A program made the position numbers and the translations under genes. This document shows positions 11,379-28,012 of a stretch of 64,000 nucleotides of DNA, piece after piece. This stretch comes from a virus. Lineage: Duplodnaviria; Caudoviricetes. The notes under the pieces are model-generated. The model had not been told where the DNA came from and made no database searches. It saw only the letters and a program-made list of their open reading frames with translations. Within the stretch, counting starts at the first letter, position 1, and each line of letters opens with the position of its first letter. The stretch lies in the IMG/VR virus record IMGVR_UViG_3300026493_000002. One strand, written 5' to 3'.

Positions 11379-11380
11379 AT

Positions 11381-11387
11381 CTGTAAA
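11381..11387 (+). promoter_or_regulatory. CTGTAAA motif heading the DNA-modification operon
   Basis: intergenic, after stop codon. Confidence 0.5.
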
Positions 11388-11442
11388 TACCAAACGTTAT
11401 CAACGAGGCCTTAGCGCCAACCACTACAAGGCAAACGACAAG

Positions 11443-12261: not shown

Positions 12262-12274
12262 CCGGAGAACAGAC

Positions 12275-13758: not shown

Positions 13759-13769
13759 GGACTTCAACC

Positions 13770-14666
13770 GTGCAAATGACCAATGTAGACCTCATTAGCG
13801 CCCCGTTTGGTGAGGGCGCTGGTGTTCTGGGATCCGAGAACGGCCCGAGTATGCTGGTTAAGCTCGGACTCTGCTCGGCGATCGGGCACGAAGGACTGTG
13901 CATCAATCAGTTCCACGAAATCAAGGCGAAGGTGCATCCGTATGTGCCTCAGCCCAGCCTCAAGTGCGGCGGTCACACGATTGCCTACAACGATGCGATC
14001 TACGAACGCTGCATCCTGAGTCTGCGCGACGACAGGTTCCCGCTGATGCTCGCCGGCGATCATTCGCTCTCCATCGGTTCGATCCTCGCCGCCAGCGACT
14101 ACGCGAAGGAGAATCGGAAGAAGTTCATCTGCCTGTACATCGACGCCCACACGGACTTCAACACTCCGGAGACGACGATGACGGGCAACACCCACGGCAT
14201 GACGCTTGCCGCTGCCGGTGGCCTGTTCCTCGATCTTGCGGTTGAGGCCTCGGAGAACCACCTGGACCTGTCCAGCATCATCTATTACGGTGCGCGTGAC
14301 ATTGACCACGAGGAGCAGAAGCTGCTGGATGAACATCCGGAGATTACCGTCATCGACATGAAGGACCAGTTCCACCTTCTGACGCTGATGGATCTGCTGG
14401 ACGAACGTCTCGACGAGGACACCCACATCCACGTCAGCTTCGATGTGGACAGTCTGGATCCGAATCACTTCCTCGCTACTGGCCTGAACGTGCCGAACGG
14501 TCTCCTTCCACAGGAAGTCGAGGCCCTCTTCCAGGATCTGCGTGCCAGCGGCGCGGTCAAATCCCTTGACGTGGTTGAGTACAACCCGTCCAAGGACAAC
14601 GCCACTTTTGAAGGCGGCCTGATGGTCAACACCATCGTGTCCCGTCTCTTCCACAACGCCCGGTGA
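13770..14666 (+). CDS. arginase (ureohydrolase family)
   Basis: AGDHSLSIGS, IDAHTDFNT, GNTHGM, SFDVDSLDP, DVVEYNP: all Mn-binding residues present. Confidence 0.9.
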   Translation: MQMTNVDLISAPFGEGAGVLGSENGPSMLVKLGLCSAIGHEGLCINQFHEIKAKVHPYVPQPSLKCGGHTIAYNDAIYERCILSLRDDRFPLMLAGDHSLSIGSILAASDYAKENRKKFICLYIDAHTDFNTPETTMTGNTHGMTLAAAGGLFLDLAVEASENHLDLSSIIYYGARDIDHEEQKLLDEHPEITVIDMKDQFHLLTLMDLLDERLDEDTHIHVSFDVDSLDPNHFLATGLNVPNGLLPQEVEALFQDLRASGAVKSLDVVEYNPSKDNATFEGGLMVNTIVSRLFHNAR

Positions 14667-15679
14667 CAGACGTGTCCAAGAAAATCTTCAAGATGCCTAC
14701 GATGAAGGCAATCAACGCCAAGGAGAAGCACTTCAAGGGTATCAGCACGTTCAGTGGCTGCGGTGGCAGTTCGACTGGCGTGAAGATGGCCGGCGTCAAG
14801 GTGCTGGTGGCAACCGAGTTCATCAAGCCTGCGATTGAGACCTACAAGGCGAACCACAAGGGCACCAAAGTGCTGGGTGATGACATTCGCAAGGTCGACT
14901 GGGAAGCTGTGCGCAAGGAGTTCAAGCTCAAGCGCGGTCAGCTGGACTTCTCCGAGGGCAGTCCGCCGTGCAAGTCGTTCTCCACTGCTGGCACCAAGAG
15001 TGAAGGCTGGGGCGAGGAAAAGAAGTACTCCGAGAACGTCAGTCAGCGTACCGACGACCTGTTCTACGAGGAAATGCGCAAGCTGTCCGAGTTCATGCCC
15101 AAGACCTTTGTGTGCGAGAACGTCAAGGGCATGGTCGAAGGTGACGCCAAGGGTTACTTCCTTGAAATCCTCCGTGACCTCAAGGCGGTCGGCTACAACG
15201 TCCGTGCGCAGGTGTTGAATGCTGCGCGTCTCGGTGTTCCGCAGGCCCGTGAGCGCATCATCTTCGTTGGCGTCCGTGACGATCTGGCGAAGAAGGGCCA
15301 CATGCCCGTATTCCCCAAGCCGCAGAAGCACGAAATCTACGTCACTGACGTGCTGCCGAAGATCGCCTACCTCAAGTCGAAGAAGAACGGCATCATGCAG
15401 TACGTGCCGGCTACCATCCCGAGTCCGACCATTGTTGCATCCGATGGCCTGAACTCGGAGACTGCGGGCTTCTCGACCGGCGGCTTCATCGAGACCATTG
15501 AGGGCGAACGTCGCAAGTACACCATCGAGGAGTTGAAGAAAATCTTCACCTTCCCCGAGGACTTCGTGTTCACCGGCAACTATCGCCAGCAGTTCGAGCG
15601 CATCGGCCGTTCGGTTCCGCCGTTGATGATGTACCACGTCGTCCGCGAAATCCGTAGGCAGATCCTCGAAAAGCTGTAA
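14663..15679 (+). CDS. C5-cytosine DNA methyltransferase, predicted carboxymethyltransferase (motif X Asn replaced by Arg316)
   Basis: FSGCGG (I), GSPPCKSFS (IV), ENVKG (VI), QARERIIFVG (VIII), ERIGRSVPP (X); GTGA overlap with arginase. Confidence 0.9.
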   Translation: MTDVSKKIFKMPTMKAINAKEKHFKGISTFSGCGGSSTGVKMAGVKVLVATEFIKPAIETYKANHKGTKVLGDDIRKVDWEAVRKEFKLKRGQLDFSEGSPPCKSFSTAGTKSEGWGEEKKYSENVSQRTDDLFYEEMRKLSEFMPKTFVCENVKGMVEGDAKGYFLEILRDLKAVGYNVRAQVLNAARLGVPQARERIIFVGVRDDLAKKGHMPVFPKPQKHEIYVTDVLPKIAYLKSKKNGIMQYVPATIPSPTIVASDGLNSETAGFSTGGFIETIEGERRKYTIEELKKIFTFPEDFVFTGNYRQQFERIGRSVPPLMMYHVVREIRRQILEKL

Positions 15680-15680
15680 A
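15674..15680 (+). promoter_or_regulatory. CTGTAAA motif
   Basis: overlaps methyltransferase stop codon. Confidence 0.4.
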
Positions 15681-15708
15681 CCATCCTCACATCCAATCGG
15701 AGATTCCC

Positions 15709-16353
15709 GTGAGCGAAGAACAGAACGAAACGGCTGTCGTTGTGCCGCCGGAACCCAAGACCATCACGGTGCTGATTCTCGGCACCGATCGCAACGTCGG
15801 CCAGGACAAGCTCGGTGAGCAGCTGGCCGCACAGTTGATCGCTGGTGGCATCAAGGTGCAGCACACGCCGACCGATGACTACGCGCGCATCCGCGCTGGC
15901 GAACTGCCCAGCCTGATCGAGAGCCACCTGAGCAAGAAGCACGCCATCAACGTGCTGTCCTACAACGGTGCGCTGTCGCATCCCGAGACCGGCCCCGTGG
16001 CCCTCGCGCTGCTGTACACGGTGAAGCCCAGCCTCGTCATCATGTGCCACGCGGGCTTTCGCGGTACGCAGGACGGTGTCAGCGTGCAGGGCGTTGGCCT
16101 TGCATCTGAAATCGCCAACACACTGCTGTTCGCTCGCCGCTTCAATCCCGATGCGAAGCTGGCGGGCATCAATCTGCATGGCGAAGGCCAGACCGAGGCC
16201 GACCTCAAGACCACGATTGACGAGACCTATCCCCTGGGTCAGTCGTTCGGCGTCGAAGTGTTCTCCTTCGACAGTGGCTCCGACGATTCGGAACTGCCCG
16301 AGGAGTTCGTTGAATCCATTGACGTGCTGGCACGAAAGGCGAAGTCACGATGA
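15709..16353 (+). CDS. DUF1611-like (DgcN-related) P-loop-fold protein, divergent
   Basis: ILGTDRNVGQDK, LLYTVKPSLVIMCH, KLAGINL parallel DUF1611 segments GTDCxVGK, LLHGSQPDALILCH, VVAIALN. Confidence 0.5.
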   Translation: MSEEQNETAVVVPPEPKTITVLILGTDRNVGQDKLGEQLAAQLIAGGIKVQHTPTDDYARIRAGELPSLIESHLSKKHAINVLSYNGALSHPETGPVALALLYTVKPSLVIMCHAGFRGTQDGVSVQGVGLASEIANTLLFARRFNPDAKLAGINLHGEGQTEADLKTTIDETYPLGQSFGVEVFSFDSGSDDSELPEEFVESIDVLARKAKSR

Positions 16354-17198
16354 ACGCGATTACTGATACGGAGTTCCAGGACCAGGGCGTCGTCTCGCCT
16401 CCGTGCGTCAAGAAGGTCGATGACCACCAGCCGGGCGCGAAGTGGGAGTTCAATGCCGACGTCGCCGTCAAGTTCGATGACATGCTGGGCCGCTCGATTC
16501 CGGGCTACCTGCAGATGCGCGAACTGGCGTACGAACTGGGCAAGAAGTTCATCCCCGATCAGAACGTCAACGTGATCGACCTGGGCGCTTCGCGTGGTGA
16601 GTCGGCTTCGGCCTTCATCGACACGCCTGCGTTCTCGGGCGCCAACTACTTCCTCAGCGAAGTCAGCGAGCCGATGCTGGATCAGATGCGTGAGCGCTGG
16701 AACGGCGTGTCGAACGTCCATCCGGTCAGCTACGACCTGCGGCGCAAGTACACCGATATCGCCTACGCGATCCACGATCCCGTGCGCAACATGGTGAACA
16801 ACGGCAAGATACCAAGCACGCCGTACACGCTGCATCCGACGACGCTGGTGCAGGCTATCCTGACCCTGATCTTCGTGCCGATCAACTTCCGGCAGGGCAT
16901 CCTCAAGGGTGTCCACGAGGGCTTGGCTCCGGGCGGCGCGTTCATCATGGTCGAGAAGGTCCTGGGCGACAGCGCCGAAATGCAGGACCTGTTGGTCGAT
17001 GCCTACCACGATCACAAGCATCGTCACGGCTACAGCTGGGAAGACATTGAGCGCAAGCGTGCGTCTCTGGAGGGCGTGCAGGTTCCCGTGCGCCACGAGG
17101 AGAACATCGCCATGCTGCGCTCGGCCGGCTTCCGCAACGTCGAAACCTTCTGGCGCCATCTGAACTTCGTCGGGTACATCTGCATCAAGGACCAGTGA
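16350..17198 (+). CDS. cmoA: carboxy-S-adenosyl-L-methionine synthase CmoA-like
   Basis: WEFNADVAVKFDDMLGRSIPGY, DLGASRG, LTLIFVP, PGGAFIMVEK, KRASLEGVQVP, LRSAGF...WRHLNF; ATGA overlap. Confidence 0.88.
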   Translation: MNAITDTEFQDQGVVSPPCVKKVDDHQPGAKWEFNADVAVKFDDMLGRSIPGYLQMRELAYELGKKFIPDQNVNVIDLGASRGESASAFIDTPAFSGANYFLSEVSEPMLDQMRERWNGVSNVHPVSYDLRRKYTDIAYAIHDPVRNMVNNGKIPSTPYTLHPTTLVQAILTLIFVPINFRQGILKGVHEGLAPGGAFIMVEKVLGDSAEMQDLLVDAYHDHKHRHGYSWEDIERKRASLEGVQVPVRHEENIAMLRSAGFRNVETFWRHLNFVGYICIKDQ

Positions 17199-17230
17199 CC
17201 TCTTAGAGGCTCACCGCGACAGTCTACAAC

Positions 17231-17250
17231 GGGCCTTCTCAGGAAGGCCC
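17231..17250 (+). terminator. 8-bp GC-rich hairpin ending modification operon
   Basis: GGGCCTTC-tcag-GAAGGCCC; no U-tract. Confidence 0.4.
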
Positions 17251-17268
17251 CATGAAGAGGGCTTCACT

Positions 17269-17742
17269 ATGTTCGGTTGGCGTAACATCCTGACCGCACC
17301 GAAGAACAAACGTATCCTCGTGTGCGGCAACAACTGGTCCGACTCGCAGGGTCCATTGAAGGAGCCGGTGATTGCTCAGTGGAATGAAAGTCGTGAACGC
17401 TGGGAGACTGGCACCGGCATTCTGGGTACTTACGGCATTCGCCCGACCCACTGGCAGCCGCTCCCTGAGGTCTACTCCACGTCGTCGATGGATCCGAAGC
17501 ACATGATCTACGTTGACACGGGTCGCGTCCTGAGCATTCACGCCGCGGTGAAGGTCGTGCTGGCGTACGAGGGTGTTCCGTTCGACGTGGTGACTGGCCC
17601 TCACGGTGCAGGCCTGCTGGTCGAACCCCAGCATCTGGACAAGATGAATCGCGTTGCCAATGATTGGGGCGGGCTGCGTGACTCCATTCCACGCGCGCTG
17701 TTCAACGCTACCGTGGACTACCAACAGAGGAACAAGCCGTGA
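17269..17742 (+). CDS. DUF551-like domain protein
   Basis: RILV...W...PTHWQPLPE signature. Confidence 0.6.
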   Translation: MFGWRNILTAPKNKRILVCGNNWSDSQGPLKEPVIAQWNESRERWETGTGILGTYGIRPTHWQPLPEVYSTSSMDPKHMIYVDTGRVLSIHAAVKVVLAYEGVPFDVVTGPHGAGLLVEPQHLDKMNRVANDWGGLRDSIPRALFNATVDYQQRNKP

Positions 17743-17876
17743 GCGACACCCTGAAATGCGACTACTGCGGCTACGTGTACCAGCTCGGTCTCAGCCTGTA
17801 CAAGGCCGGCGACAAGTGCCCGAAGTGCAACGGTCGCGGCATTCTCTGTTCCAAAGGCTCGCGAGGTAACCCGTGA
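17739..17876 (+). CDS. small Zn-ribbon protein (45 aa, not in ORF track)
   Basis: VSDTLKCDYCGY...KCPKCNG; GTGA overlaps at both ends. Confidence 0.7.
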   Translation: MSDTLKCDYCGYVYQLGLSLYKAGDKCPKCNGRGILCSKGSRGNP

Positions 17877-18652
17877 GCAGCCACGTTCTTCGAGTAGTGG
17901 ACAACCCCACACTTCCGCTCGTTCCGGAATTCTCGGTCGCCGTCGGTCATTCCATCGGTGACTTCGGAGCGCAGGCCAGCAGTCTCGGAGGCATCGTCTA
18001 TGCAACGTTGCTTAAGAAGAGCTCCATTCCGAATGAGGAGTCGGCGCGTCGTCTGCACGCTTCGATATCCAAGCTGTACACGGAAGATCTGGATCGACCG
18101 ATAGCGGGCATGACCGCTCAGCTTGATGACTACAGCATTCCTCTCTTGCGCATGTCTAGCGCCGAGATTGACCAGTTGGTATATCTCGGATTCAATCCGA
18201 TCCGCTGCGCAATCCAGTTCGGCGTTGTTCCGTGGGCGCAGCATACGTCTCATGGGTACAGCATCCAGCTGCTGCGCCTCTTGGTGACGGCTATTCATGC
18301 CATTTCAGTACGGGCGGGGCGTGCCTGCGAAGCCTGTTCGCTGGAAGGACCTGCACGCAATCACGCCCTGTACCACCACTCTGCTGAGGTCTTCATGGAG
18401 CTCCAGCAGTTCAGGCTTTCGCATATGTTCCAACTGGTAGCAGGCAGACACGGAGCGCACGGTATCGCCATTATGCTTGAGCGCGACGCCCCGCCGTTCG
18501 GAAAGAACTTCCTTGAGGAGGCTCTGTGCATAAGCACGGACGTCATGGAGGTCGGTAACGTTTTCGGAACCCTCCACCAGTTGCAGATCCTGCATGAACT
18601 GTGGCCGAGCATGTTCACTGGTGGCCCGCAAATCTGTAAAGGGAATCGGTAG
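17873..18652 (+). CDS. hypothetical protein
   Basis: GTGA-coupled ORF, codon use less biased than neighbours. Confidence 0.65.
   Translation: MSSHVLRVVDNPTLPLVPEFSVAVGHSIGDFGAQASSLGGIVYATLLKKSSIPNEESARRLHASISKLYTEDLDRPIAGMTAQLDDYSIPLLRMSSAEIDQLVYLGFNPIRCAIQFGVVPWAQHTSHGYSIQLLRLLVTAIHAISVRAGRACEACSLEGPARNHALYHHSAEVFMELQQFRLSHMFQLVAGRHGAHGIAIMLERDAPPFGKNFLEEALCISTDVMEVGNVFGTLHQLQILHELWPSMFTGGPQICKGNR
18634..18640 (+). promoter_or_regulatory. CTGTAAA motif
   Basis: last codons of upstream gene, 33 nt before next start. Confidence 0.45.
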
Positions 18653-18672
18653 TTTCAGCTGAGGAAATATCC

Positions 18673-19125
18673 ATGCGCGAATTGAAGTTGCTACGCAAGC
18701 GCGTAAAGGCAATGTGGAAAATGGAAGAGGAGTTGTCGCCTCCGGAGCGCAAGCTCCATCAGTGGCAATTCCTCTCGACCCAGACGGGCATCCCGTATCT
18801 CGTAGGCAAGGGTGACGCAAACACCTTCTTCTACAAGATCGGCGAGAAGGGCGAAATGCAGTACGTCATGCCCGACAAGATGTTTGCCATCTTGGACAAG
18901 TGGTGCGGCGAGAAGTACGTCATGTACGCCATCGCTCGCAACTCCAACGTGAAGAAGGCCAAGCGCCAATCGAAGGTCCTCGCCGACCTGTTGAAGCGCA
19001 CCAACTCCAAGTATGCGGACTACCACATCGTGGGTATCACCGCCGACAGCCGAGTGGACAAGCTGTACTCGATGAAGACAGGCCTGACGGCCAACCAGTG
19101 GGTGCCGTTGAAGGTCAAGCCGTAG
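18673..19125 (+). CDS. hypothetical basic protein
   Basis: GAGG RBS. Confidence 0.8.
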   Translation: MRELKLLRKRVKAMWKMEEELSPPERKLHQWQFLSTQTGIPYLVGKGDANTFFYKIGEKGEMQYVMPDKMFAILDKWCGEKYVMYAIARNSNVKKAKRQSKVLADLLKRTNSKYADYHIVGITADSRVDKLYSMKTGLTANQWVPLKVKP

Positions 19126-19130
19126 ATGCA

Positions 19131-19201
19131 GTGTGACGTGTTCAGAAACCGGTGCGCACGTTCTGCCCGGAAACACTAATTTCTGAACACGTTTGGCACA
19201 C
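19131..19201 (+). repeat. long intergenic hairpin with 13-bp perfect inverted repeat
   Basis: ACGTGTTCAGAAA (19136-19148) / TTTCTGAACACGT (19180-19192), extended by GTGTG/CACAC and inner CCGG/CCGG. Confidence 0.8.
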
Positions 19202-19237
19202 CAAGGTGAGCCTCTTCCACACTACAGGTACTTCCCC

Positions 19238-19621
19238 ATGAATCCACCCTCGGCAGAGTCGAAGGCATCATCCGGGTCGCGTTACATAACAGTGATGCTG
19301 ATTCCGGTACTTGGTGCCAACGGCAAGGTGCAGAATCGCACCATCCCGTTTGACCGTCCTCCCACGAAGGAATTCGCTGTCAATACCTGCGAGCGCCTCC
19401 ACGAGGAGTACGTCACCCGTGACGGTTACGATTCGGAATGGGAGCGTTGCGCGGCAGTACTGAGGCAAATCCCCGAAGAGCGGTTCTCGCGTATGAATCA
19501 GCGTCGTGCTACCAGCATGACTCACCTGGTCGACGTGGCGCTTCCCAACGGTACGATCACCCAGCGAATGTTCAGCGCACGCTCCTGCCTCGTCCACGAG
19601 GTCAAGCATTCGGAGCGGTAA
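19238..19621 (+). CDS. hypothetical protein (start moved to ATG 19238)
   Basis: track start lies inside the hairpin. Confidence 0.65.
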   Translation: MNPPSAESKASSGSRYITVMLIPVLGANGKVQNRTIPFDRPPTKEFAVNTCERLHEEYVTRDGYDSEWERCAAVLRQIPEERFSRMNQRRATSMTHLVDVALPNGTITQRMFSARSCLVHEVKHSER

Positions 19622-19803
19622 TGCCAAGCATCAACTCCAATCCAAGGCGTCTTCCCTCCCCGTCTGAGGCGAGGGCGCTCTCGCTACAGATGCGCGAGCG
19701 AGCGGAGAATCACCCGGACGCTACGCAGGACGATTGGCTGATTCGCAATCTTCTGCTGGCGTACAGTCGAGGCGAAGTACAGCCTCGTCCGAAAAAGAAG
19801 TAA
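19621..19803 (+). CDS. small hypothetical protein (60 aa)
   Basis: TAATG coupling, GGAG RBS. Confidence 0.65.
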   Translation: MPSINSNPRRLPSPSEARALSLQMRERAENHPDATQDDWLIRNLLLAYSRGEVQPRPKKK

Positions 19804-19809
19804 CCGCGT

Positions 19810-20434
19810 TACAGGCGAACGACTGAATCCCGTCATCCTCTCAGGATAGTGAGTAGGTGCTGCCAGGCACCGAGAGCGATGTGACAGTTTGCCTAACCCT
19901 GGCGTCCTCGACTGAGTGTGAGCAACCCAGTTGAGTAAAACCACACGACAACTAGCCAGCTCTCTTGTCTTGGCACCGCCGCTCACTGAACGCCTGGAAA
20001 ACGTTCGGCAGGCTTGCACGTCGTGGTTAAGAGTTGGGATTATAGGTCGTACCCTAGTCCCGATGGGTTTATGCGAGCCACACTGGTGCCCTATGAGGTC
20101 TGACATACGGCATGGGTAATCTACCAAAGCACCTCAGACAAGCTGCTAACGCCATTTGGTTTACGGGATTTTCCGATGGCGTCGGCCGATGAATTCGGGC
20201 AGCACCTGCCTACCAAGATACACTGCTAGTTTAATCGTTCGCGTGTCTCCTCGCCGTCGCCCCGGTTTAGGATTGACTACGAACCACTAAAACATCATTC
20301 TCGATTGGCACTCGGTGATCCTTGCCCACCGTTGAGCATCTTGCGCGAACACGCGGTTCCCCGTCCCGCACGTAATGCGCACTATCCTCACGCCACGACT
20401 GATATCCGGAATTTCGGTCTCCGGGCAGTGTACC
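19810..20434 (+). ncRNA. candidate large structured non-coding RNA with tRNA-like 3' domain
   Basis: no credible ORF; helices 19843-51/20380-88, 19853-64/20198-209, 19907-14/19928-35, 20149-55/20176-82, 20220-26/20425-31; boundaries approximate. Confidence 0.55.
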
Positions 20435-20442
20435 CTCCAAAT

Positions 20443-20449
20443 CTGTAAA
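20443..20449 (+). promoter_or_regulatory. CTGTAAA motif
   Basis: inside non-coding island, upstream of tRNA-like element and terminator. Confidence 0.5.
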
Positions 20450-20472
20450 GACAGACTGTGAGGATCTTCTAC

Positions 20473-20561
20473 GCGCCGCTAGTTTAATAGCGAATGTGGC
20501 AATTCAGTAATCGCCGGCCTTATCCCCCTTTGGCCCGCGGTCCTGTTCCGGTTGCCGCGCT
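20473..20561 (+). ncRNA. degenerate tRNA-like element
   Basis: 6/7-bp acceptor GCGCCGC/GCCGCGC, TAGTTTAAT at positions 8-16, long variable arm; T-loop, anticodon stem and CCA non-canonical. Confidence 0.3.
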
Positions 20562-20661
20562 ACCGTCAAAACAGATTGCTTGACAATGGCCTTCCCCAGC
20601 CGGAGTCACTACCCAGAGCAATCTATCCGGTCCATGAAACCGGGCGGCGCACCCTACCCAG

Positions 20662-20697
20662 AGCCTCACGCCTAATCAAACGGGCGTGGGGCTTTTT
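20662..20697 (+). terminator. intrinsic terminator
   Basis: AGCCTCACGCC/GGCGTGGGGCT 11-bp stem followed by TTTT. Confidence 0.8.
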
Positions 20698-20729
20698 CGT
20701 TTGTGTCACCAGTCTGGAGCCTACAGAGA

Positions 20730-21272
20730 ATGAAACGCACCACCATCTTCGGCACCCGAATCAAGGGTCGTCTTTCTCCACTGCCGATCATCACCTTCAA
20801 GCTCAAGCTGAATGGTCCCGATGACAAGATCGTCAACGGTATCGGCGTGTACGTCTTCTCGGTATTCGATGACGACGGCAAGCTGCACGTGGTCGATGCC
20901 GCTACCCAGGTCTGGCACGACCTGAACAACACGCTGGTGCTCGCCGACGGCCGTGCCCTGCCGCTCCTCGAAGGCAGCATCGTTGATCGCCGTATGCGTA
21001 CCAAGGTCGATCACGTTCCGTCGCCGTCCGACAATGCCATCGAGTATGCCAAAGAGCATATCGCCAGCATGAACGCTCACATCCTCAAGCAGTTTCACGA
21101 GAAGTTCAACACCACACTCATGGAGGAAGTAGATGAAGCCGAAGAAGACGACACCGATCAGGAAGTCCCCGCCGCAGGCGCTGCCGGCAGTACCGCGACC
21201 GGTGATCCCAACTACTGGTATGCCAAGCGTGACGACGGCGTCAGCGACAATGACGACGCGCCGATGCTCTAA
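20730..21272 (+). CDS. hypothetical protein with acidic tail (start ATG 20730)
   Basis: GGAG upstream. Confidence 0.75.
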   Translation: MKRTTIFGTRIKGRLSPLPIITFKLKLNGPDDKIVNGIGVYVFSVFDDDGKLHVVDAATQVWHDLNNTLVLADGRALPLLEGSIVDRRMRTKVDHVPSPSDNAIEYAKEHIASMNAHILKQFHEKFNTTLMEEVDEAEEDDTDQEVPAAGAAGSTATGDPNYWYAKRDDGVSDNDDAPML

Positions 21273-21334
21273 CCATCTGCCGGCCAAACGCTGAAAGAAT
21301 TAGGCGACAGTCAAACCTGCACTGGTCGCCAGTT

Positions 21335-21341
21335 CTGTAAA
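21335..21341 (+). promoter_or_regulatory. CTGTAAA motif
   Basis: intergenic. Confidence 0.5.
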
Positions 21342-21347
21342 CAACAA

Positions 21348-21400
21348 GGGTAGGCAGTACGCTTCGATATTCGTTGCCTACTGCCTACCCATTTTCTTTT
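21348..21400 (+). terminator. intrinsic terminator or attenuator hairpin
   Basis: GGGTAGGCAGTA/TACTGCCTACCC perfect 12-bp stem then ATTTTCTTTT. Confidence 0.7.
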
Positions 21401-21418
21401 CCAGAGCATAAAACGACA

Positions 21419-21877
21419 ATGAACGAATCTCGCCTGGGTTTGCTTTGCAACACCTATCCGTCCGACTGGGAAGAGACTCACACGGGCGTGCTGGTTCTGC
21501 TGGACGTCGAGGCCCGCTCCGCGCTTATCGTGGGCTATACTCCGTCCGGCGACACGGGCCGCACCGTGGAATTGAACGACGCCCAGCAGTTCATGAACCT
21601 GTTTGGTCTCTCGGGCAAGAGCCTCGAAGGAGACTGTGCAGGCCAGCGCGCTCTGTTCTACGTGACGGTTGATGCACTGAACACCATCGGCAGCACCGTC
21701 TACTTCCTGCGTACCGACTTCAAGGTCAAGGGCGGTGTCGAGGATCAGGCAAAGCTGGCCCAGCATCTGTTCGAGGTCATTTCGGACAGCAGCGATCCCG
21801 CGCACGAATACATGGACGATCTTCGCATTCTCAAGAACGACGTGTTCGGCAATACCGACGTAGTTATCGGAGTCTAA
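21419..21877 (+). CDS. tail-sheath N-terminal-domain-like stand-alone protein
   Basis: ALIVGYTPSGDTGRTVELNDAQQFMNLFG...GSTVYFLR parallels sheath N-terminus. Confidence 0.45.
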   Translation: MNESRLGLLCNTYPSDWEETHTGVLVLLDVEARSALIVGYTPSGDTGRTVELNDAQQFMNLFGLSGKSLEGDCAGQRALFYVTVDALNTIGSTVYFLRTDFKVKGGVEDQAKLAQHLFEVISDSSDPAHEYMDDLRILKNDVFGNTDVVIGV

Positions 21878-21880
21878 CCT

Positions 21881-22828
21881 GTGTCCAAGAACAACGATCC
21901 GCGACGCCGTCCTCACCACAGCAGCACCCTGATCGACGTACATAACGACGACACGGTGCGCGATCTTGCGGACTCCCTGGCTACGGAAATCCGACACGAT
22001 TCCACGGCTCGCATCCTGCTGATCGTCGGCTCGTTCTCCGACGGCATTCAGTTGACCAAGCGGCTGCACGCTTTCGATCCGTACATGAAGATCGAGTCCT
22101 GCGGCGCCGTGCGTCACATGCGTGGTGTGATGCCCCGCAATGACACGCAGGTGTACGTCATCCCGTCGATGATTGCCGAACTGGGCAACTCCTGGCCGGG
22201 CTTCAACGTCATGTACCTCGTGTCGTGTCCCGCGAACGACCAAAGCCTCGTTCAGGTGGTGTCCCGCGTCAACCGCGCAGGCAAGAGCAATCCGCGTGTC
22301 CGCATCTTCGCCAGCACTGCGGTGCGCGAGGTGTTTGAGAACGCGCGCTGGCTCGAATCCCGCATCAAGGAAACGATTGACGTTGATCTGCACGTCACGT
22401 ATCCGTCCAACCTTCGCGACCAGCTGGTCATCATCACGCCTCAGAATAGCGAGTCCCCGATGATGCTTCTGTCGGACGCCAACCACGTAACGCAGGTGCT
22501 GATCGGCTTCTCCACGTCGGGGCCGGACGACCGAATCTACTGCGTGCAGTCTCTGGCTGCCATGGACGCGATCTACTCCGATCGCGGACGTGACTACCTG
22601 ATGCGGCGCACCGCATCCCAGTTGTTCCTCGATCACAACTCGCCGGTGTTCATCAACCGTATGCGGGAAGGCTCGATGCTCACTTCCGATGGTGTGCGGG
22701 TAGGTGCCGCCGCGCAGTCGCATATGCTCAACACCGCAATCGGTAATGCGTATCGCAACTCACACCCGCTGATGACGCTCTTGCGCCGTGCGTCCAAGTC
22801 TGTACCGTTCAACTCGCTGGCCCAGTAG
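21881..22828 (+). CDS. hypothetical protein with helicase C-terminal-like segment
   Basis: ELGNSWPGFNVMYLV...LVQVVSRVNRAGK resembles SF2 motifs V-VI. Confidence 0.5.
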   Translation: MSKNNDPRRRPHHSSTLIDVHNDDTVRDLADSLATEIRHDSTARILLIVGSFSDGIQLTKRLHAFDPYMKIESCGAVRHMRGVMPRNDTQVYVIPSMIAELGNSWPGFNVMYLVSCPANDQSLVQVVSRVNRAGKSNPRVRIFASTAVREVFENARWLESRIKETIDVDLHVTYPSNLRDQLVIITPQNSESPMMLLSDANHVTQVLIGFSTSGPDDRIYCVQSLAAMDAIYSDRGRDYLMRRTASQLFLDHNSPVFINRMREGSMLTSDGVRVGAAAQSHMLNTAIGNAYRNSHPLMTLLRRASKSVPFNSLAQ

Positions 22829-22859
22829 TACCTATCAATCTACATATCAGGGGAAGTCC

Positions 22860-23222
22860 ATGTCAGTGCAAGTCGATCCCAAGTATCTCGCCGCGTTGGA
22901 GAAGGCAGCGTCCCTCGGCGGTTTGTGCCACGTATCTGGCCTTACCGGCGAAGAGCGCAACCTGATCGCCCGCCGTCTTCTGTCTGTGTACGAAGGCGCG
23001 TTCGCTACGACGCATCCTCGCATCATCCATCACGGGCCTGCTGCGGTGCACACCCAGGCATGCGCTGTGCATCACGACAAGACGGCTGCGGTCTATGACT
23101 GCAACTCAGGCGTGTTCCACCCGTCGTGGGCTGCGCAGTCTCAGGGCTGGAAGCTGGTGCAGGCGAAAACTTGGTGGCAGCGTCTGCTGCTGAATCTCGG
23201 CTTCGGTGACCAGGACTTCTGA
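22860..23222 (+). CDS. hypothetical protein
   Basis: ATG 22860 with GGGGA RBS. Confidence 0.7.
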   Translation: MSVQVDPKYLAALEKAASLGGLCHVSGLTGEERNLIARRLLSVYEGAFATTHPRIIHHGPAAVHTQACAVHHDKTAAVYDCNSGVFHPSWAAQSQGWKLVQAKTWWQRLLLNLGFGDQDF

Positions 23223-23229
23223 GGAGTAA

Positions 23230-23829
23230 GTGGTGGCAAAAGATAAGAAGTCGTCGGCCAGAGCAGAGGTCGACATTACCCCGTCCTACCCGACGTATGA
23301 CGGCGACAATCCGCCGTGGCCGTACACTCGACCCGATCCGCGTCCGTACGGCTATCGTGCGAAGTACGACAAGACCGTCCGCCTGCTGATCCTGCCGGGT
23401 CATCTGCCGCACGATCCCGCCATGAATCAGATCGAGCGCGTAGTCCGTCGCATGATGGACAAGAAGATCGACGTGGTGATCGTCGTTCCCGACTGCTATC
23501 GCGGCATCGGTGAAATCATGGCGAGGCGTAACGGTCTGAACTACCTGATCGTCAACACCGACTACAAGGACAACGTCAACCTGCCGGGCAACAACCTCAT
23601 GTCGGTGTTGATGACCAGCAAGACGGCCCGCATCCGTGTCATGCAGTCTGCGGATCGCGCCTGTGTGGTGTTGAAGAATCCGGTGACCGAGCGCTTCATC
23701 GAGGAACTGGAAGAAAGCGACATTCAGGTCAAGACGTTCAAGCCAATCTATCGCACGCCGAAGCCGCGCCCCAAGCCGGAAGCGGTTGTGCCCGAAAAGA
23801 AATCCAAGAAGAAGGGGAAGAAACGATGA
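23230..23829 (+). CDS. hypothetical protein, possibly degenerate SLOG fold, Lys-rich tail
   Basis: GAGGAG RBS; RIRVMQSADRACVV loosely SLOG-like. Confidence 0.6.
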   Translation: MVAKDKKSSARAEVDITPSYPTYDGDNPPWPYTRPDPRPYGYRAKYDKTVRLLILPGHLPHDPAMNQIERVVRRMMDKKIDVVIVVPDCYRGIGEIMARRNGLNYLIVNTDYKDNVNLPGNNLMSVLMTSKTARIRVMQSADRACVVLKNPVTERFIEELEESDIQVKTFKPIYRTPKPRPKPEAVVPEKKSKKKGKKR

Positions 23830-24188
23830 TGCGTCTGTTGGTTATTGCATTCGTGCTGGCGCTGGTCGCGTGCAGCCCGAGTCAGGAAGATCGAATCGAG
23901 GCTGATGCCTTCAACAAGGCTTCGCTCTCCAATCCACGCTACGTCGGCTGTCTGCCTGACGGCCGTGCGGTGTTCGTTGCGGAAATGAAGGCATTCCGTC
24001 CGGGCAGCAGTGTCGCGCAGACCGACCGCCTGTACATGACGCTCGACGGTGAAGCCACTGTTGCGATTCAGCAGCCCAGCGGCAAAAGCACGGTGCCTCA
24101 GTCCGTCTTCTGGCCTGGCACTGGCAACACCGTCCCCGGAGATCCGTGTGCGTTGCAGCTGTCGAAGGACGTGGGAAATGGCCGATGA
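23826..24188 (+). CDS. putative lipoprotein
   Basis: lipobox LVAC after hydrophobic signal. Confidence 0.7.
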   Translation: MMRLLVIAFVLALVACSPSQEDRIEADAFNKASLSNPRYVGCLPDGRAVFVAEMKAFRPGSSVAQTDRLYMTLDGEATVAIQQPSGKSTVPQSVFWPGTGNTVPGDPCALQLSKDVGNGR

Positions 24189-24642
24189 ACTGATACCTGC
24201 TCCGGAAGCGCCGGAGACCGCCGAGCAGATGATCGAGCGCATCTTTCTCGCGCACGGCTTCACCAAGAAGCCTCAGGAAGACGGCACCGAGGCACTGAAC
24301 GACTACGTGTTCAAGGCCGCCCATGCGCTGATCGAAGAAGCACTGAATGCGGAGGCGATGAAGAATCTGTTGCCTTCGCGCTTCCAGTTGAATGACTGGA
24401 TCACAGCTTCGGATGGCAAACGCTACCAGATTTGCGGCGTGTCGTTCGTTCTGATGGACTTCAACGACGGTTGGGGTGAAGGCGGCAAGATCATCTACCA
24501 GCTGCGCGATCAACAGGGCAATACGATGGATATCCTGTCCAACTTCGCGGAGGAAAAGGCATCTGCTCCGCCTCCGAAGCACAACGGTCTACGTCTCGTG
24601 GTGAGCAACGATGGGGCATCCGAAGAGCCGAGTGGCGCATAG
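24178..24642 (+). CDS. hypothetical protein
   Basis: ATG 24178. Confidence 0.7.
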   Translation: MADELIPAPEAPETAEQMIERIFLAHGFTKKPQEDGTEALNDYVFKAAHALIEEALNAEAMKNLLPSRFQLNDWITASDGKRYQICGVSFVLMDFNDGWGEGGKIIYQLRDQQGNTMDILSNFAEEKASAPPPKHNGLRLVVSNDGASEEPSGA

Positions 24643-24648
24643 TAACCG

Positions 24649-25227
24649 ATGAACATTTTTGTGCTGCACGAAAACCCACGTAAGGCGGCGCAGATGCACT
24701 GTGACCGCCACGTCGTCAAAATGGTAACCGAGAGCGCGCAGCTTCTGTGCTTTGCTCACTACGTGGCCAATGACGACAAGCGTTGGGTGAAGCGCCACGT
24801 GAAGTTCAAGCTCAACAAGGGTCATGCTGCGCATCCCTGCACCCTGTGGATGCTGGAAGACCCTAGGCACTACGCGTGGGTGTATCGTCTACTGCAACAC
24901 CTGTTGAAGGAGTACGACTACCGATACGATGGTCTCAAGAAAGGCAAGTACGCCAACATCCTCAAGATGCTGCCCGCTCTGGCAAACATCCCGGGCACGG
25001 ACCTCACGGTTGACCGTGTGCGCCGTCGGCCGACTGAGTTTGTCCTCGCCATGGGACGCGCTCCCGAGTGCATTGGTGAGTACGCAGTAGAGTCTTACCG
25101 CAGGTTCTATCTCGCCAACAAGCGTGAGTTCGCCACGTGGAAACACCGAGACGTGCCTGAGTGGTTCACGTCCGGCCTCAAGCAACTGAATCGAAGCGGT
25201 GACGTTCGTAAGGTCACCGTCGTCTAA
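24649..25227 (+). CDS. pyrimidine-dimer DNA glycosylase (DenV/endonuclease V)-like family protein
   Basis: MNIFVL...AQMHCDRHVVKM..ESAQLL, HPCTLW, AVESYRRFY...ATWK.R.VPEWF. Confidence 0.8.
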   Translation: MNIFVLHENPRKAAQMHCDRHVVKMVTESAQLLCFAHYVANDDKRWVKRHVKFKLNKGHAAHPCTLWMLEDPRHYAWVYRLLQHLLKEYDYRYDGLKKGKYANILKMLPALANIPGTDLTVDRVRRRPTEFVLAMGRAPECIGEYAVESYRRFYLANKREFATWKHRDVPEWFTSGLKQLNRSGDVRKVTVV

Positions 25228-25243
25228 TATCGGCAGTAACCAT

Positions 25244-25675
25244 ATGAACTATGATCTTGTCCTCTATCTAACAGCATCCCAGCCTGTAAGCGACACCCAC
25301 GCCATGATTGGCCCCGCCAGTCCAACGGCGATTGACGAGTCTCGGATCTACATCGCGATGGTCTGCCACAGTGCAGACGCTCCTCGCGATACGCTGGTGT
25401 GTATCGAAACCCTGAACGACCTGTATCGTCTCTTCCCTGACGTTGAGCATAAGCCCTTCAACTCCGGCTACCTGACCGCACACGGTGTGCTGTCGGCCGG
25501 CGGCTCTGTTCAAGCCCTGTTCGTTGCTCACGATGACGCCGTGTACAAGGCCAGCTATCGGGTAATGACCGAAGCTCTTGCACGTCGCATTCACGCGCAT
25601 GAAGAAGACGAACGGTTCAAGAAACCCTTGCGCCGTATCGTGTCGTCGTCGAAGTACCACAAGGTGGTCAGGTAG
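25244..25675 (+). CDS. second tail-sheath N-terminal-like stand-alone protein
   Basis: APRDTLVCIETLNDLYRLF...YLTAHGVLSAGGSVQALFV. Confidence 0.4.
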   Translation: MNYDLVLYLTASQPVSDTHAMIGPASPTAIDESRIYIAMVCHSADAPRDTLVCIETLNDLYRLFPDVEHKPFNSGYLTAHGVLSAGGSVQALFVAHDDAVYKASYRVMTEALARRIHAHEEDERFKKPLRRIVSSSKYHKVVR

Positions 25676-25717
25676 TCCCATTTATCGTAACGCCCATATT
25701 GGCCTGAGGGGAATCTC

Positions 25718-26284
25718 ATGGCGCGGAAGACCAAGATGCGAATGTCGGATGTTGTGCTGGTGTACGCTGACGCCAGCTACTGTTCAAGCACGGCTGCATG
25801 GGGATACGGCTACTGCATTTTGGTTGGTGAGCCGGTGATGCGAAAGACCTATTCGGGAGGCAGCATCTACTGTGTGTCTTCCCAGCAGGCTGAAATGATG
25901 GCGGTACGTGAAGCCTTGGATTTCTTGCGCGTGCATATGACGCCGATGATCCGAGGCAGACAAATCGAGGTCCGCAGTGATTGCCTTGGAGCCATCGCTG
26001 CAATCCGTAAAGAGGCGCAAGAGTTCATCGACCTGACGGGCGTGTCGGGCGTTGCACTGCACCACGTGCGCTCACACTCCGGACGACGGGACGCTCATTC
26101 CCAACTGAATTACCTGTGCCACTGTCTCGCAAAGCAGGCAATGGCCAAGTACCGCGCTCGCGTGTCCAAGCACCGTGCGCGTAAACGAGGACGACACCGT
26201 GGCAAAGAAGCTCCTGAGCATCACCGTGCGAGGAAAGCACAAGAAGTGGTGCTTCACTCTCTTGGAAGATCCGAAGTATCTTGA
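25718..26284 (+). CDS. RNase H-like protein
   Basis: YADAS, QAEMMAVREAL, RSDC, HVRSHSG, NYLCHCLAK (last Asp replaced by His). Confidence 0.8.
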   Translation: MARKTKMRMSDVVLVYADASYCSSTAAWGYGYCILVGEPVMRKTYSGGSIYCVSSQQAEMMAVREALDFLRVHMTPMIRGRQIEVRSDCLGAIAAIRKEAQEFIDLTGVSGVALHHVRSHSGRRDAHSQLNYLCHCLAKQAMAKYRARVSKHRARKRGRHRGKEAPEHHRARKAQEVVLHSLGRSEVS

Positions 26285-26456
26285 AGAGTGGCGTGAAGAC
26301 GGACTGGAGATTGACGAGATTTGCAACTCCATCCCGAAGTGGGTTGTTGACGTCGGCTTGATGCAACCGTACATCATCCTGCAGGACATTTTCAATTTCA
26401 AGTTTGGCGAAGCCTGGGATGGCATCAAGCACCTCTTCGCCAAGAACAAGGAGTGA
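26199..26456 (+). CDS. hypothetical protein
   Basis: GTG with GAGG RBS, overlaps RNase H tail. Confidence 0.65.
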   Translation: MAKKLLSITVRGKHKKWCFTLLEDPKYLEEWREDGLEIDEICNSIPKWVVDVGLMQPYIILQDIFNFKFGEAWDGIKHLFAKNKE

Positions 26457-26460
26457 CACC

Positions 26461-27108: not shown

Positions 27109-27150
27109 GCCGAGTCCTTGAAGTCCACAATCGAGTCTACAGAGAACCCC

Positions 27151-27855: not shown

Positions 27856-27874
27856 TCGCCGCGTCGATCACGGG

Positions 27875-27997
27875 ATGCAAAACACGATTAACGCTGCTGC
27901 CCGTCTCGGCTTGGCCCTTGCCGCGTGGTCGTATCCAAGTCTCGGTCGTCGCAAGCAGAAGTCGAAGTACACCCGTAAGAAGGGAAAGCGTAAGTGA
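27875..27997 (+). CDS. small basic peptide (40 aa, not in ORF track)
   Basis: MQNTINAAARLGLALAAWSYPSLGRRKQKSKYTRKKGKRK fills intergenic gap. Confidence 0.45.
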   Translation: MQNTINAAARLGLALAAWSYPSLGRRKQKSKYTRKKGKRK

Positions 27998-28012
27998 CCT
28001 AGGCTGCCCAAT

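What the first reader, a model, noticed from the sequence alone, without database searches (positions are those of the whole stretch)
19804..20440. Candidate ~620-nt highly structured non-coding RNA
Seen: the longest gene-free stretch of the window, in otherwise wall-to-wall coding DNA. Long-range complementarities: AGGATAGTG 19843/CACTATCCT 20380 (9 bp), GTAGGTGCTGCC 19853/GGCAGCACCTGC 20198 (12 bp, one GU), AACCAC-ACGAC 19939/GTCGTGGTT 20020, CTTGTCT 19964/AGACAAG 20136, CACCGAG 19869/CTCGGTG 20311. Local hairpins at 19907-35, 19992-20012, 20036-61, 20087-20111, 20149-82. Several hairpin loops are complementary to distant segments (GTGAGC/GCTCAC, GTCTGA/TCAGAC), implying pseudoknots. Inference: size and architecture are in the class of large phage-associated RNAs such as ROOL and GOLLD, or it is a new class.
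Basis: partly seen in the sequence, partly recalled or inferred. Interest (0 to 1): 0.8.

Follow-up and report, generated by a model that had tools for sequence, protein, structure and literature searches.

The report
New modular structured RNA in jumbo phage
The gene-free stretch of this soil jumbo phage encodes a real, previously uncatalogued folded RNA of about 890 bases. It is built from three domains, with an internal phage promoter and a terminator just ahead of the next genes, so part of it may act as a switch for those genes rather than as one giant free RNA.

Summary

- **Extent.** The non-coding stretch runs 19804-20729, not to 20440. It is the largest gap in the window.
- **Non-coding.** It is conserved at 78% with one divergent relative (L006). 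Substitutions show no codon periodicity and the indels are frame-breaking.
- **Conserved fold.** There are 14 compensatory double changes against 4.9±2.1 in shuffles. The structure conservation index (SCI) is 0.77 on the + strand against a null of 0.57±0.03. The + strand beats the - strand in every domain.
Four of its five long-range helices are broken in L006.
- **No known family.** Rfam, including ROOL and GOLLD, gives nothing. Three covariance models (CMs) built here find no copy in seven jumbo phages.
- **Three parts.** These are D1 (19812-20215), D2 (20216-20431) and a 3' unit (20432-20700). A third, more distant lineage (L107) has only the 3' unit, again with compensatory changes.
- **Internal promoter.** The 3' unit begins at a copy of CTGTAAA. 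This motif occurs 11 times on + and 0 on -, almost always just upstream of genes here and in PaBG-like phages.
- **Terminator.** The unit ends at the only strong terminator in 19 kb, 30 nt before the next gene. In the two relative lineages that gene is Tad2-like.

Best reading: a new structured RNA locus whose core is a promoter-leader-terminator unit, extended 5' by 620 nt in this lineage.

The parts
19812..20215 (+). Domain D1, 5' structured domain (about 400 nt). It has a long multi-helix arm (19847-19988) and hairpins 19907-35, 19988-20006, 20033-64, 20082-20117 and 20149-82. There are invariant blocks of 16-22 nt.
   Evidence: 81% identity to L006. SCI is 0.85 against a null of 0.69±0.04, and consensus energy is -122 against -92±6. 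Compensatory pairs are listed. CMs R1 and R2 hit only the window and L006 types.
19825..19833 (+). 5' strand of a candidate long-range pseudoknot. It pairs with 20163-20171, the loop of hairpin 20149-82.
   Evidence: A 9-bp helix with one compensatory change (G-C to A-U) between window and L006. This is a single event, so support is weak.
20216..20431 (+). Domain D2, closed by the 7-bp stem 20220-26/20425-31. It opens with the same module as D3: GC, UAGUUUAAU, then GAUUGAC and AAAACA.
   Evidence: 66% identity, yet SCI is 0.65 against a null of 0.41±0.07. Compensatory changes occur in the closing stem, in 20237-41/20280-84 (3 changes) and in 20406-12/20417-24.
20225..20235 (+). Motif GCTAGTTTAAT, copy 1, at the start of D2.
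   Evidence: There are only two copies in 64 kb, even allowing one mismatch. It is invariant in L006.
20434..20463 (+). Hairpin P0 (CCUC...GAGG with inner UCUGU/ACAGA). Its loop carries the promoter-like motif.
   Evidence: It is folded in the independent minimum-free-energy (MFE) structures of window, L006 and L107. The sequence is conserved in all three lineages.
20443..20451 (+). CTGTAAAGA, a copy of a phage promoter-like motif and the probable start signal of the 3' unit.
   Evidence: CTGTAAA occurs 11 times on + and 0 on - in the window. Ten of the 11 are intergenic, and nine of those lie 26-80 nt before the next + gene. In the six distinct related loci (PaBG and L006, L030, L032, L035, L107) there are 16 on + and 0 on -, mostly 35-50 nt before an ATG. 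It sits at the same place in L006 (3481) and L107 (2080).
20458..20463 (+). GUGAGG, complementary to CCUCAC (20664-20669) in the 5' arm of the terminator. This is a candidate antiterminator strand.
   Evidence: When the transcript is cut before the terminator's 3' arm, the MFE forms this helix around D3 in all three lineages. Both strands are invariant, so there is no covariation test.
20473..20650 (+). Domain D3, the conserved core. It has closing stem P1 (20473-79/20644-50), UAGUUUAAU, GUUU/AAAC, a long hairpin 20573-20624 with a UUCCCC loop, and hairpin 20627-43.
   Evidence: It is present in three lineages. P1 has two compensatory changes in L107 (pairs 49-227 and 50-226). By eye, GUUU/AAAC becomes GUGU/ACAC, and the UUCCCC loop is kept on a different stem. 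MFE z is -4.7, -6.5 and -3.8. SCI is 0.72 against a null of 0.52±0.06.
20478..20488 (+). Motif GCTAGTTTAAT, copy 2, at the start of D3.
   Evidence: In L107 it reads GCTAGTGTAAT.
20660..20695 (+). Intrinsic terminator with a 14-bp stem and a U tract. The RBS (GGAG, 20716-19) and the ATG (20730) of the next gene follow within 35 nt.
   Evidence: It is the only strong terminator-like site in 9000-28000. The hairpin is kept in L006 and L107. Variants keep pairing only on the + strand: U-G to U-A twice in L008, and C-G to U-G in L006. The U tract is degenerate in L107.
19238..19621 (+). g127, the constant upstream neighbour (127 aa, no known family).
   Evidence: 82% aa identity in L006 and 57% in L107, always just upstream of the RNA. 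There is no Pfam, PHROG or PADLOC hit, and no ESM Atlas lead.
20730..21272 (+). g180, the first gene after the terminator. It has no CTGTAAA motif of its own.
   Evidence: In L006 and L107, two Tad2-like genes (PF11195) and a 256-259-aa gene lie between the terminator and the g180 homologue.

Best explanation
The stretch 19812-20700 is a real, previously uncatalogued, modular structured RNA locus read on the + strand. It has two layers.

(1) The conserved core is the 3' unit, shared by three phage lineages. It consists of a phage promoter-like motif (CTGTAAAGA, 20443-51), a folded domain D3 of about 180 nt closed by a 7-bp stem, and an intrinsic terminator. The ribosome-binding site of the next gene lies 20 nt behind the terminator.

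That next gene has no promoter motif of its own. I therefore infer that its transcription must pass through D3 and the terminator. On this reading the unit works as a transcription-attenuation leader. The 5' GUGAGG can pair with the 5' arm of the terminator around a folded D3 (antiterminator), or the terminator can form. An unknown ligand or protein bound to D3 would set the balance. The genes gated are Tad2-like anti-defence genes in the two relative lineages and g180 here. Terminated transcripts would also leave a discrete RNA of about 240 nt.

D1 has no counterpart elsewhere. D2 starts with the same sequence module as D3 and looks like a diverged duplicate. This part has no promoter motif or terminator of its own. 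It is probably made as the tail of the g150-g127 transcript and runs on into D3.

Shown: non-coding status, conservation, a conserved fold, the modules, the motif statistics and the synteny. Inferred: the transcription start, read-through, the switch and any ligand.
For: Non-coding but constrained:
- Divergence from L006 is 22%, against 51% and 36% at third codon positions of the flanking genes.
- Substitutions fall 63/70/64 by position mod 3, against 15/9/65 and 36/34/66 in the flanks.
- There are 15 indels, mostly not multiples of 3, and no shared ORF.

Conserved fold:
- 14 compensatory double changes on the window's own MFE structure, against 4.9±2.1 (maximum 11) in 150 column shuffles.
- SCI is 0.765 on + and 0.675 on -, against a null of 0.570±0.025. 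Consensus energy is -250 against -170±8.
- Each domain is separately significant, with + above -.
- Slid-partner controls drop from 97-100% paired to 31-53%.

Third lineage:
- L107 carries only the 3' unit, with 79% blastn matches at both ends.
- Two compensatory pairs occur in the closing stem.
- Three independent folds give the same architecture, with z of -3.8 to -6.5.

Promoter motif:
- CTGTAAA occurs 11 on + and 0 on - in the window. Ten of 11 are intergenic, and nine of those lie 26-80 nt before the next gene.
- It occurs 16 on + and 0 on - in PaBG and five related loci.
- The copy at 20443 is kept in L006 and L107. It is an outlier in lying about 280 nt from the next ATG.

Terminator and switch:
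- It is the only strong terminator in 19 kb.
- g180 has no motif of its own, and the next copy is at 21335.
- The alternative GUGAGG/CCUCAC helix is the MFE of the truncated transcript in all three lineages.

Synteny: the order g127, RNA, then Tad2-like genes is seen in L006 and L107.
Against: - Only three lineages exist, and only two for D1 and D2, so each helix rests on one to three substitution events.
- No transcript end, strand or abundance was measured. The soil RNA runs that hold the stretch cover the whole phage genome.
- The promoter role of CTGTAAA is inferred from position and strand alone.
- Both antiterminator strands are invariant, and each is already explained by P0 and by the terminator. 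The flanking extra pairs seen in the window are not kept in L107, so there is no covariation for the switch. A 6-mer complement within 200 nt has about a 5% chance expectation.
- The U tract is degenerate in L107, which weakens the terminator reading there.
- The gene behind the terminator differs between lineages.
- A leader does not explain why 620 nt of conserved structure sit upstream of the promoter.
- At equilibrium the terminator state is about 13 kcal/mol more stable than the antiterminator state.
Confidence: 0.42

Rival explanations
1. It is one large, stable, trans-acting RNA of about 890 nt, in the manner of ROOL or GOLLD. It would be cut from the upstream operon transcript and protected by the terminator hairpin. 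It would act as an RNA-only or RNA-protein scaffold through its invariant single-stranded blocks and UUCCCC loops. On this reading its position before the next gene is only phage gene packing.
For: - The size, three domains and many invariant 14-22-nt blocks outside helices.
- A candidate pseudoknot, 19825-33/20163-71, with one compensatory change.
- Full-length z of -3.4.
- Structure conserved across the whole length.
- A strong 3' hairpin.
- The phage setting. Earlier notes of this scan report other orphan large RNAs in jumbo phages.
Against: - There is no match to ROOL, GOLLD or any Rfam family.
- L107 keeps only the 3' 270 nt, so the 890-nt form is not the conserved unit.
- A promoter-like motif sits inside the RNA.
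- No promoter motif was found at its 5' end.
- There is one copy per genome segment, and none in seven other jumbo phages.
Confidence: 0.3
2. The locus encodes several separate small RNAs (D1, D2 and the D3 RNA). They would be released by processing at the AU-rich UAGUUUAAU segments, or made from unrecognised promoters, and each would act on its own target.
For: - The domains are separately closed by their own stems.
- The AU-rich motif sits exactly at the two domain starts.
- The internal promoter motif defines at least one separate unit.
Against: - No ends were measured.
- D1 and D2 have no promoter motif or terminator of their own.
- The candidate long-range pair 19825-33/20163-71 lies within D1, so it does not speak to this question.
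- UAGUUUAAU is predicted partly paired (GUUU/AAAC), which fits a structural role better than a cleavage site.
Confidence: 0.12
3. It is a DNA-level or R-loop element of replication: an origin or a primer-precursor RNA of the ColE1 RNA II kind. This would fit its place inside the replication and DNA-modification gene region.
For: - DNA polymerase A, a helicase, a ParB-like gene and a DNA-modification operon lie within 20 kb upstream.
Against: - There is no AT-rich unwinding region. GC is 0.56-0.57, as elsewhere, and the cumulative skew does not turn.
- There are no iterons beyond two 11-mers.
- G-U-dependent conservation and the + over - asymmetry of SCI point to RNA, not duplex DNA.
- The element is absent from PaBG and other relatives that share the replication genes.
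Confidence: 0.06
4. It is not a functional element. It would be a decaying gene or spacer that looks conserved only because the two phages diverged recently, with unrecognised small peptides explaining the rest.
For:
- Only a few lineages are known.
- The 60-aa ORF next to it comes and goes.
Against: - It is conserved well above synonymous sites of both flanking genes.
- There is no codon periodicity, and the indels are frame-breaking.
- There is an excess of compensatory changes and a high SCI.
- A third lineage at 57% protein identity still keeps the core and its helices.
Confidence: 0.04

Closest known systems
ROOL (RF03087) and GOLLD (RF01998), large ornate RNAs of phages and prophages
   Same: Phage-encoded, several hundred nucleotides long, multi-domain, with conserved unpaired blocks and probable pseudoknots. 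Function is unknown.
   Different: There is no sequence or structure match to either covariance model at gathering score or at E<=10. There are no neighbouring tRNA genes. The distribution is narrow: three lineages of one uncultured soil phage group. A promoter-like motif lies inside the RNA, and only the 3' third is conserved beyond the closest relatives.
Transcription-attenuation leaders (terminator/antiterminator riboswitches, T-box leaders), including tandem-aptamer arrangements such as the glycine riboswitch
   Same: The order is promoter, folded domain closed by a stem, intrinsic terminator, RBS, gene. A strand can pair either with the terminator's 5' arm or elsewhere. Two modules with the same opening sequence (D2, D3) precede one terminator.
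   Different: No known aptamer family matches. No ligand is known. The switch helix has no covariation support. D2 lies upstream of the putative promoter. The total length is far above known leaders. The gated genes are phage accessory genes rather than metabolic ones.
Riboswitch- or attenuator-derived small RNAs that also act in trans (for example SreA/SreB of Listeria); from my own knowledge, not checked here
   Same: A terminated leader would accumulate as a discrete structured RNA of about 240 nt.
   Different: This is purely an analogy. No target or abundance data exist.
The other ~550-nt non-coding unit of the same phage genome
   Same: Same genome, between co-directional genes, structured, with no Rfam family.
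   Different: I could not fetch its sequence because no genome is held, so relatedness is untested. My three CMs found no second copy inside this 64-kb window.

Membership tests
ROOL (RF03087) | A match to the Rfam covariance model at or above the gathering score. | tested here: not met
   cmscan of the whole window at gathering score gave 0 matches. A scan of 19600-20800 at E<=10 gave only terminator-like noise. L006 and L107 gave nothing.
GOLLD (RF01998) | A match to the Rfam covariance model. Members are frequently adjacent to tRNA genes in phages. | tested here: not met
   No match. ARAGORN finds no tRNA in the window.
Group I / group II introns and small self-cleaving ribozymes | A match to the Rfam models, and flanking sequences that form one split gene. 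| tested here: not met
   No match at E<=10. The upstream and downstream genes are separate. The downstream gene differs between lineages.
Terminator/antiterminator leader (riboswitch-like attenuator) | It lies between a promoter and the regulated gene, with no other promoter for that gene. | tested here: inconclusive
   The promoter-like motif lies at 20443-51 and the next copy only at 21335. The terminator ends 35 nt before the ATG. The promoter function itself is not shown.
Terminator/antiterminator leader (riboswitch-like attenuator) | A conserved folded sensor domain with covariation. | tested here: met
   D3 shows compensatory pairs across three lineages and a significant SCI and z.
Terminator/antiterminator leader (riboswitch-like attenuator) | Mutually exclusive terminator and antiterminator helices. 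| tested here: inconclusive
   GUGAGG/CCUCAC forms in the truncated-transcript MFE of all three lineages. Both strands are invariant, and the flanking pairs are not kept in L107.
Terminator/antiterminator leader (riboswitch-like attenuator) | A defined ligand or protein effector, and a consistent class of regulated genes. | not testable with these tools
   Two of three lineages have Tad2-like genes downstream and one has g180. No effector is known.
Large structured RNA families of RaK2/121Q-type jumbo phages (earlier notes e1-209182, e1-147449) | Sequence and structure similarity to those RNAs. | tested here: not met
   CMs R2 and R3 find nothing in RaK2 or 121Q. This is a one-directional test made with my models only.

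The most novel reading that the evidence does not exclude
D3, with D2 as a second copy, is a new ligand-sensing RNA. It would switch on phage counter-defence genes (Tad2-type sponges in the relatives) by antitermination. It might respond to a host immune signal or to a state of the infected cell. That would be the first riboswitch-like control of anti-defence genes in a phage.
Probability: 0.07. Interest if true: 0.9.

Novelty: new variant of a known kind. Interest (0 to 1): 0.62.

Why it matters
Large, intricately folded bacterial and phage RNAs are few, and each new one has opened new biology. This one matches no catalogued family. Its anatomy is unusually readable: a core unit shared by three lineages, with a promoter-like motif, a sensor-like domain and a terminator in front of accessory genes, and a 620-nt expansion that includes a duplicated module.

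If the core is a switch, it would show RNA-based control of phage accessory or anti-defence genes. If the whole is one RNA, it adds an orphan class to the ROOL/GOLLD kind.

A by-product is a candidate promoter consensus (aaTCTGTAAAnA) for the PaBG-like jumbo phages. These phages carry their own sigma factor (PMC7412058), and I found no published promoter for them in the papers searched.

Tried and rejected
Homologue hunts that found nothing useful:
- blastn of 19700-20800 against 50,697 phage records gave no match.
- The search for related loci in IMG/VR with g180, the 142-aa ORF 19193-19621 that contains g127, g150 and a g127 alignment gave no relatives.
- A 16-mer scan of IMG/VR gave 21 chance hits.
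- An 18-mer scan of the metagenome contigs gave only L085, which is the L006 type.
- An 18-mer scan of genome contigs gave chance hits only.
- The terminator pattern in IMG/VR gave L109, an unrelated look-alike hairpin behind a gene.
- The core-motif pattern in IMG/VR gave nothing.
- Relatives that share the 150-aa neighbour at 56-60% (PaBG, L030, L032-35) have no gap and no RNA.
- CMs R1-R3 found nothing in the jumbo phages each was run on, drawn from PaBG, HRDY3, Lu11, Yoloswag, pEa_SNUABM_5, RaK2 and 121Q. One E=0.56 hit in Lu11 was taken as noise.

Expression:
- Seven soil metatranscriptome runs hold the stretch.
- The contigs laid cover the whole 19.5 kb around it at even depth in the deep runs. 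This shows neither a discrete transcript nor its ends.
- In the shallow run X13 the bin 19614-20264 has depth 19.6 against 0-7 elsewhere. Contig depth is not a measure of expression, so I do not use this as evidence.

Strand: counting G-U against A-C pairs in strand-symmetric helices was inconclusive. The strand call rests on SCI, the terminator variants and gene orientation.

Neighbours:
- g127, g60, g180, g152, g315, g120 and g198 have no Pfam, PHROG or PADLOC hits.
- The ESM Atlas gave no lead for g127.
- The AlphaFold2 model of g180 was unusable, with pLDDT 37.
- No sigma-70-type promoter was found in 19300-21300.

Motif GCTAGTTTAAT as a general promoter: rejected, because it occurs only twice in 64 kb.

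Contigs carrying the L006-type g168 variants (L098, L099) do not reach the RNA. L102 adds only two substitutions.

Full report
**Setting.** The window comes from an uncultured jumbo phage. Its family-A DNA polymerase is 42-44% identical to those of PaBG, Lu11, Yoloswag and related Erwinia and Dickeya phages. No whole genome is held. Nearly all genes are on the + strand and GC is about 0.57. Near-identical DNA occurs in soil, rhizosphere and amphibian-associated samples.

**The observation.** The gene-free stretch is real and is the largest gap in the window. It runs from the stop of a 60-aa ORF (19803) to the ATG of a 180-aa gene (20730), which is 926 nt rather than 637. It ends in a strong + strand intrinsic terminator at 20660-20695, the only strong one between 9 and 28 kb. 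For the full 889 nt, z is -3.4. Rfam gives nothing at gathering score. At E<=10 only terminator-like noise appears.

**Relatives.**
- Exact-protein look-ups gave identical copies (L002-L005) and 99% variants (L007, L008).
- One divergent lineage was found: L006, with L085 and L102 as near-copies.
- L006 aligns over window 19812-20744 at 77.8% identity. The flanking genes align at 75-76%.
- In L006 the 60-aa ORF is absent. Two Tad2-like genes (PF11195) and a 256-aa gene lie between the terminator and the g180 homologue.
- More distant relatives that share the 150-aa neighbour at 56-60% identity (PaBG, L030, L032-35) lack the RNA. They also lack g127, g180 and the next few genes.

**Non-coding and under selection.** Substitutions between window and L006 fall 63/70/64 by position mod 3. 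In the two flanking genes they fall 15/9/65 and 36/34/66. There are 15 indels, mostly of 1, 2 or 4 nt, and no open frame is shared. Divergence is 22%, against 51% and 36% at the flanks' third codon positions. Sixteen blocks of 14-22 nt are invariant.

**A conserved fold.**
- I took the MFE structure of the window sequence alone and read it on L006. It gives 14 pairs with both sides changed and still paired. In 150 column shuffles the figure is 4.9±2.1, with a maximum of 11.
- SCI is 0.765 on + and 0.675 on -, against 0.570±0.025 for shuffled alignments. Consensus energy is -250 against -170±8 kcal/mol.
- Each domain passes alone, and + exceeds - in all three: D1 0.85 against 0.69±0.04, D2 0.65 against 0.41±0.07, and the 3' unit 0.72 against 0.52±0.06.
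- On CM-fitted alignments, 97-100% of cells pair, against 31-53% when partners are slid. That structure was derived from these sequences, which inflates the contrast.
- Direct G-U against A-C counts did not settle the strand.
- The + strand is supported by SCI and by gene orientation. It is also supported by terminator variants that keep pairing only on +: U-G to U-A twice in L008, and C-G to U-G in L006.

Hairpins 19907-35, 19988-20006, 20082-20117 and 20149-82 each carry 2-3 compensatory changes. Hairpin 20036-61 is almost invariant. The long-range pairs 19843/20380, 19853/20198, 19869/20311 and 19964/20136 are broken or uncompensated in L006. The pair 19939/20020 is invariant. A different long-range pair, 19825-33 with 20163-71 (the loop of hairpin 20149-82), has one compensatory change and is a pseudoknot candidate.

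**Modules.** The RNA falls into D1 (19812-20215), D2 (20216-20431) and a 3' unit: hairpin P0 at 20434-63, D3 at 20473-20650, and the terminator. D2 and D3 are each closed by a 7-bp stem. Both open with GC-UAGUUUAAU, followed later by GAUUGAC-like and AAAACA segments. D2 therefore looks like a diverged duplicate of D3. This is an inference from four aligned instances.

**A third lineage.**
- A full HMMER search with g127 gave homologues down to 34% identity.
- The contig of the 57% homologue (L107) has the order g127-like gene, a 55-aa membrane ORF, about 270 nt of non-coding DNA, then two Tad2-like genes.
- That non-coding DNA matches only window 20432-20490 and 20643-20696. It therefore carries P0, D3 and the terminator hairpin, but not D1 or D2.
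- The D3 closing stem changes from GCGCCGC/GCGGCGC to UUGCCGC/GCGGCAA, which is two compensatory pairs.
- By eye, GUUU/AAAC becomes GUGU/ACAC, and the UUCCCC loop sits on a different stem.
- Independent folds of the three 3' units give the same architecture, with z of -4.7, -6.5 and -3.8.

**An internal promoter-like motif.**
- The loop of P0 reads CTGTAAAGA. CTGTAAA occurs 11 times on the + strand of the window and never on the - strand.
- Ten of the 11 copies are intergenic by a crude gene map in which 14% of the DNA is intergenic. Nine of those ten lie 26-80 nt before the next + gene.
- In PaBG and five related loci it occurs 16 times on + and 0 on -, mostly 35-50 nt before an ATG.
- PaBG-like phages encode their own sigma factor (PMC7412058). 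I read the motif as a phage promoter element. This is inference from position and strand only.
- The copy at 20443 is kept in L006 and L107. It is an outlier because about 280 nt, holding D3 and the terminator, separate it from the next ATG.
- g180 has no copy of its own, and the next is at 21335, before g152. The previous copy is at 18634, before g150.
- The inferred map is: promoter(18634), g150, g127, g60, D1-D2, promoter(20443), D3, terminator, g180, promoter(21335).

**Mechanism.**
- With this map, transcription of g180 (or the Tad2-like genes in the relatives) must pass through D3 and the terminator. That is the layout of an attenuation leader.
- GUGAGG (20458-63), close to the expected start, is complementary to CCUCAC (20664-69) in the terminator's 5' arm.
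- When the transcript is cut before the terminator's 3' arm, the MFE in all three lineages closes D3 with this helix. In the full transcript, the terminator (plus P0 where present) wins by about 13 kcal/mol.
- This fits a kinetic switch set by whatever binds D3. However, both strands are invariant, and the extra flanking pairs seen in the window are lost in L107, so there is no covariation for it.
- The rival reading is a single large trans-acting RNA. It is favoured by the size and by the conserved unpaired blocks. It is weakened by L107 and by the internal motif.
- I put about 0.9 on a real conserved structured RNA on the + strand. I put about 0.42 on the leader model for the core and about 0.30 on one large trans-acting RNA.

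**Comparison with known families.** It is not a member of ROOL, GOLLD, introns, ribozymes or any Rfam family. Three CMs built here find no copy elsewhere in the window. Run between them against seven jumbo phages, including RaK2 and 121Q, for which earlier notes of this scan report other orphan large RNAs, they find no copy there either. Literature searches gave no description of it.

**Limits.** There are only three lineages, no measured transcript ends, and an unknown host. Expression data cannot separate RNA from DNA carry-over.

Noticed in passing
window 2662, 6407, 8505, 11381, 15674, 18634, 20443, 21335, 28013, 52807, 63228; also L001 (PaBG) 1342, 2622, 5182: CTGTAAA (extended aaTCTGTAAAnA) stands only on the coding strand, almost always in the short gaps 26-80 nt before a gene. 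This holds in this phage and in PaBG-like relatives. It is a candidate promoter consensus for the group's own sigma factor. Several copies are followed by ACAG, which makes a small inverted repeat.
   Followed up: partly
L006 3774-5974; L107 2301-4073: Two Tad2-like genes (PF11195) and a 256-259-aa gene follow the RNA's terminator in the two relative lineages. They are missing from the window, where g180 follows directly. The junction lies at the start codon.
   Followed up: partly
window 19621-19803: The 60-aa ORF between g127 and the RNA has GC3 below 0.6 and is absent from L006. L107 has an unrelated 55-aa hydrophobic ORF at the same place. It may not be a real gene.
   Followed up: partly
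window 20730-21272: g180 has a beta-rich N-terminal half and a long acidic tail ending in DNDDAPML. By eye this is reminiscent of single-strand DNA-binding protein tails. The AlphaFold2 model was too poor to test it (pLDDT 37).
   Followed up: partly
window 11443-17198: An operon with ParB-like, asparagine-synthase/QueC-like, GNAT, arginase-family, C5 DNA methylase-family and DUF1611 genes (Pfam).
   Followed up: no
window 20294-20298 with 20315-19 or 20398-20402; 20425-31 with 20220-26 or 20080-85: In two cases one strand has two possible partners, and both partners changed in step with it in L006 (AUCAU to AUCGC; CAGUGU to CAGUGC). This may hint at alternative conformations, or it may be coincidence.
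   Followed up: no
window 20357-62, 20521-27, 20591-97; L107 2162-2168, 2223-2229: Hairpin or junction loops repeatedly read UUCCCC or UCCCCC and are kept across lineages while their stems change. They are a possible common binding site.
   Followed up: no
L108 2483-2663: Behind a 56% g127 homologue of an AT-richer phage there is a perfect sigma-70-type promoter (TTGACA, 17 nt, TACAAT) whose spacer contains ACTGTAAAA. The contig ends 181 nt after the gene, so what follows is unknown.
   Followed up: no
L109 11421-11449: An unrelated IMG/VR contig carries an almost identical terminator hairpin (GAGCCTCACG...GGGCGTGGGGCT) behind a gene, without the rest of the RNA.
   Followed up: yes
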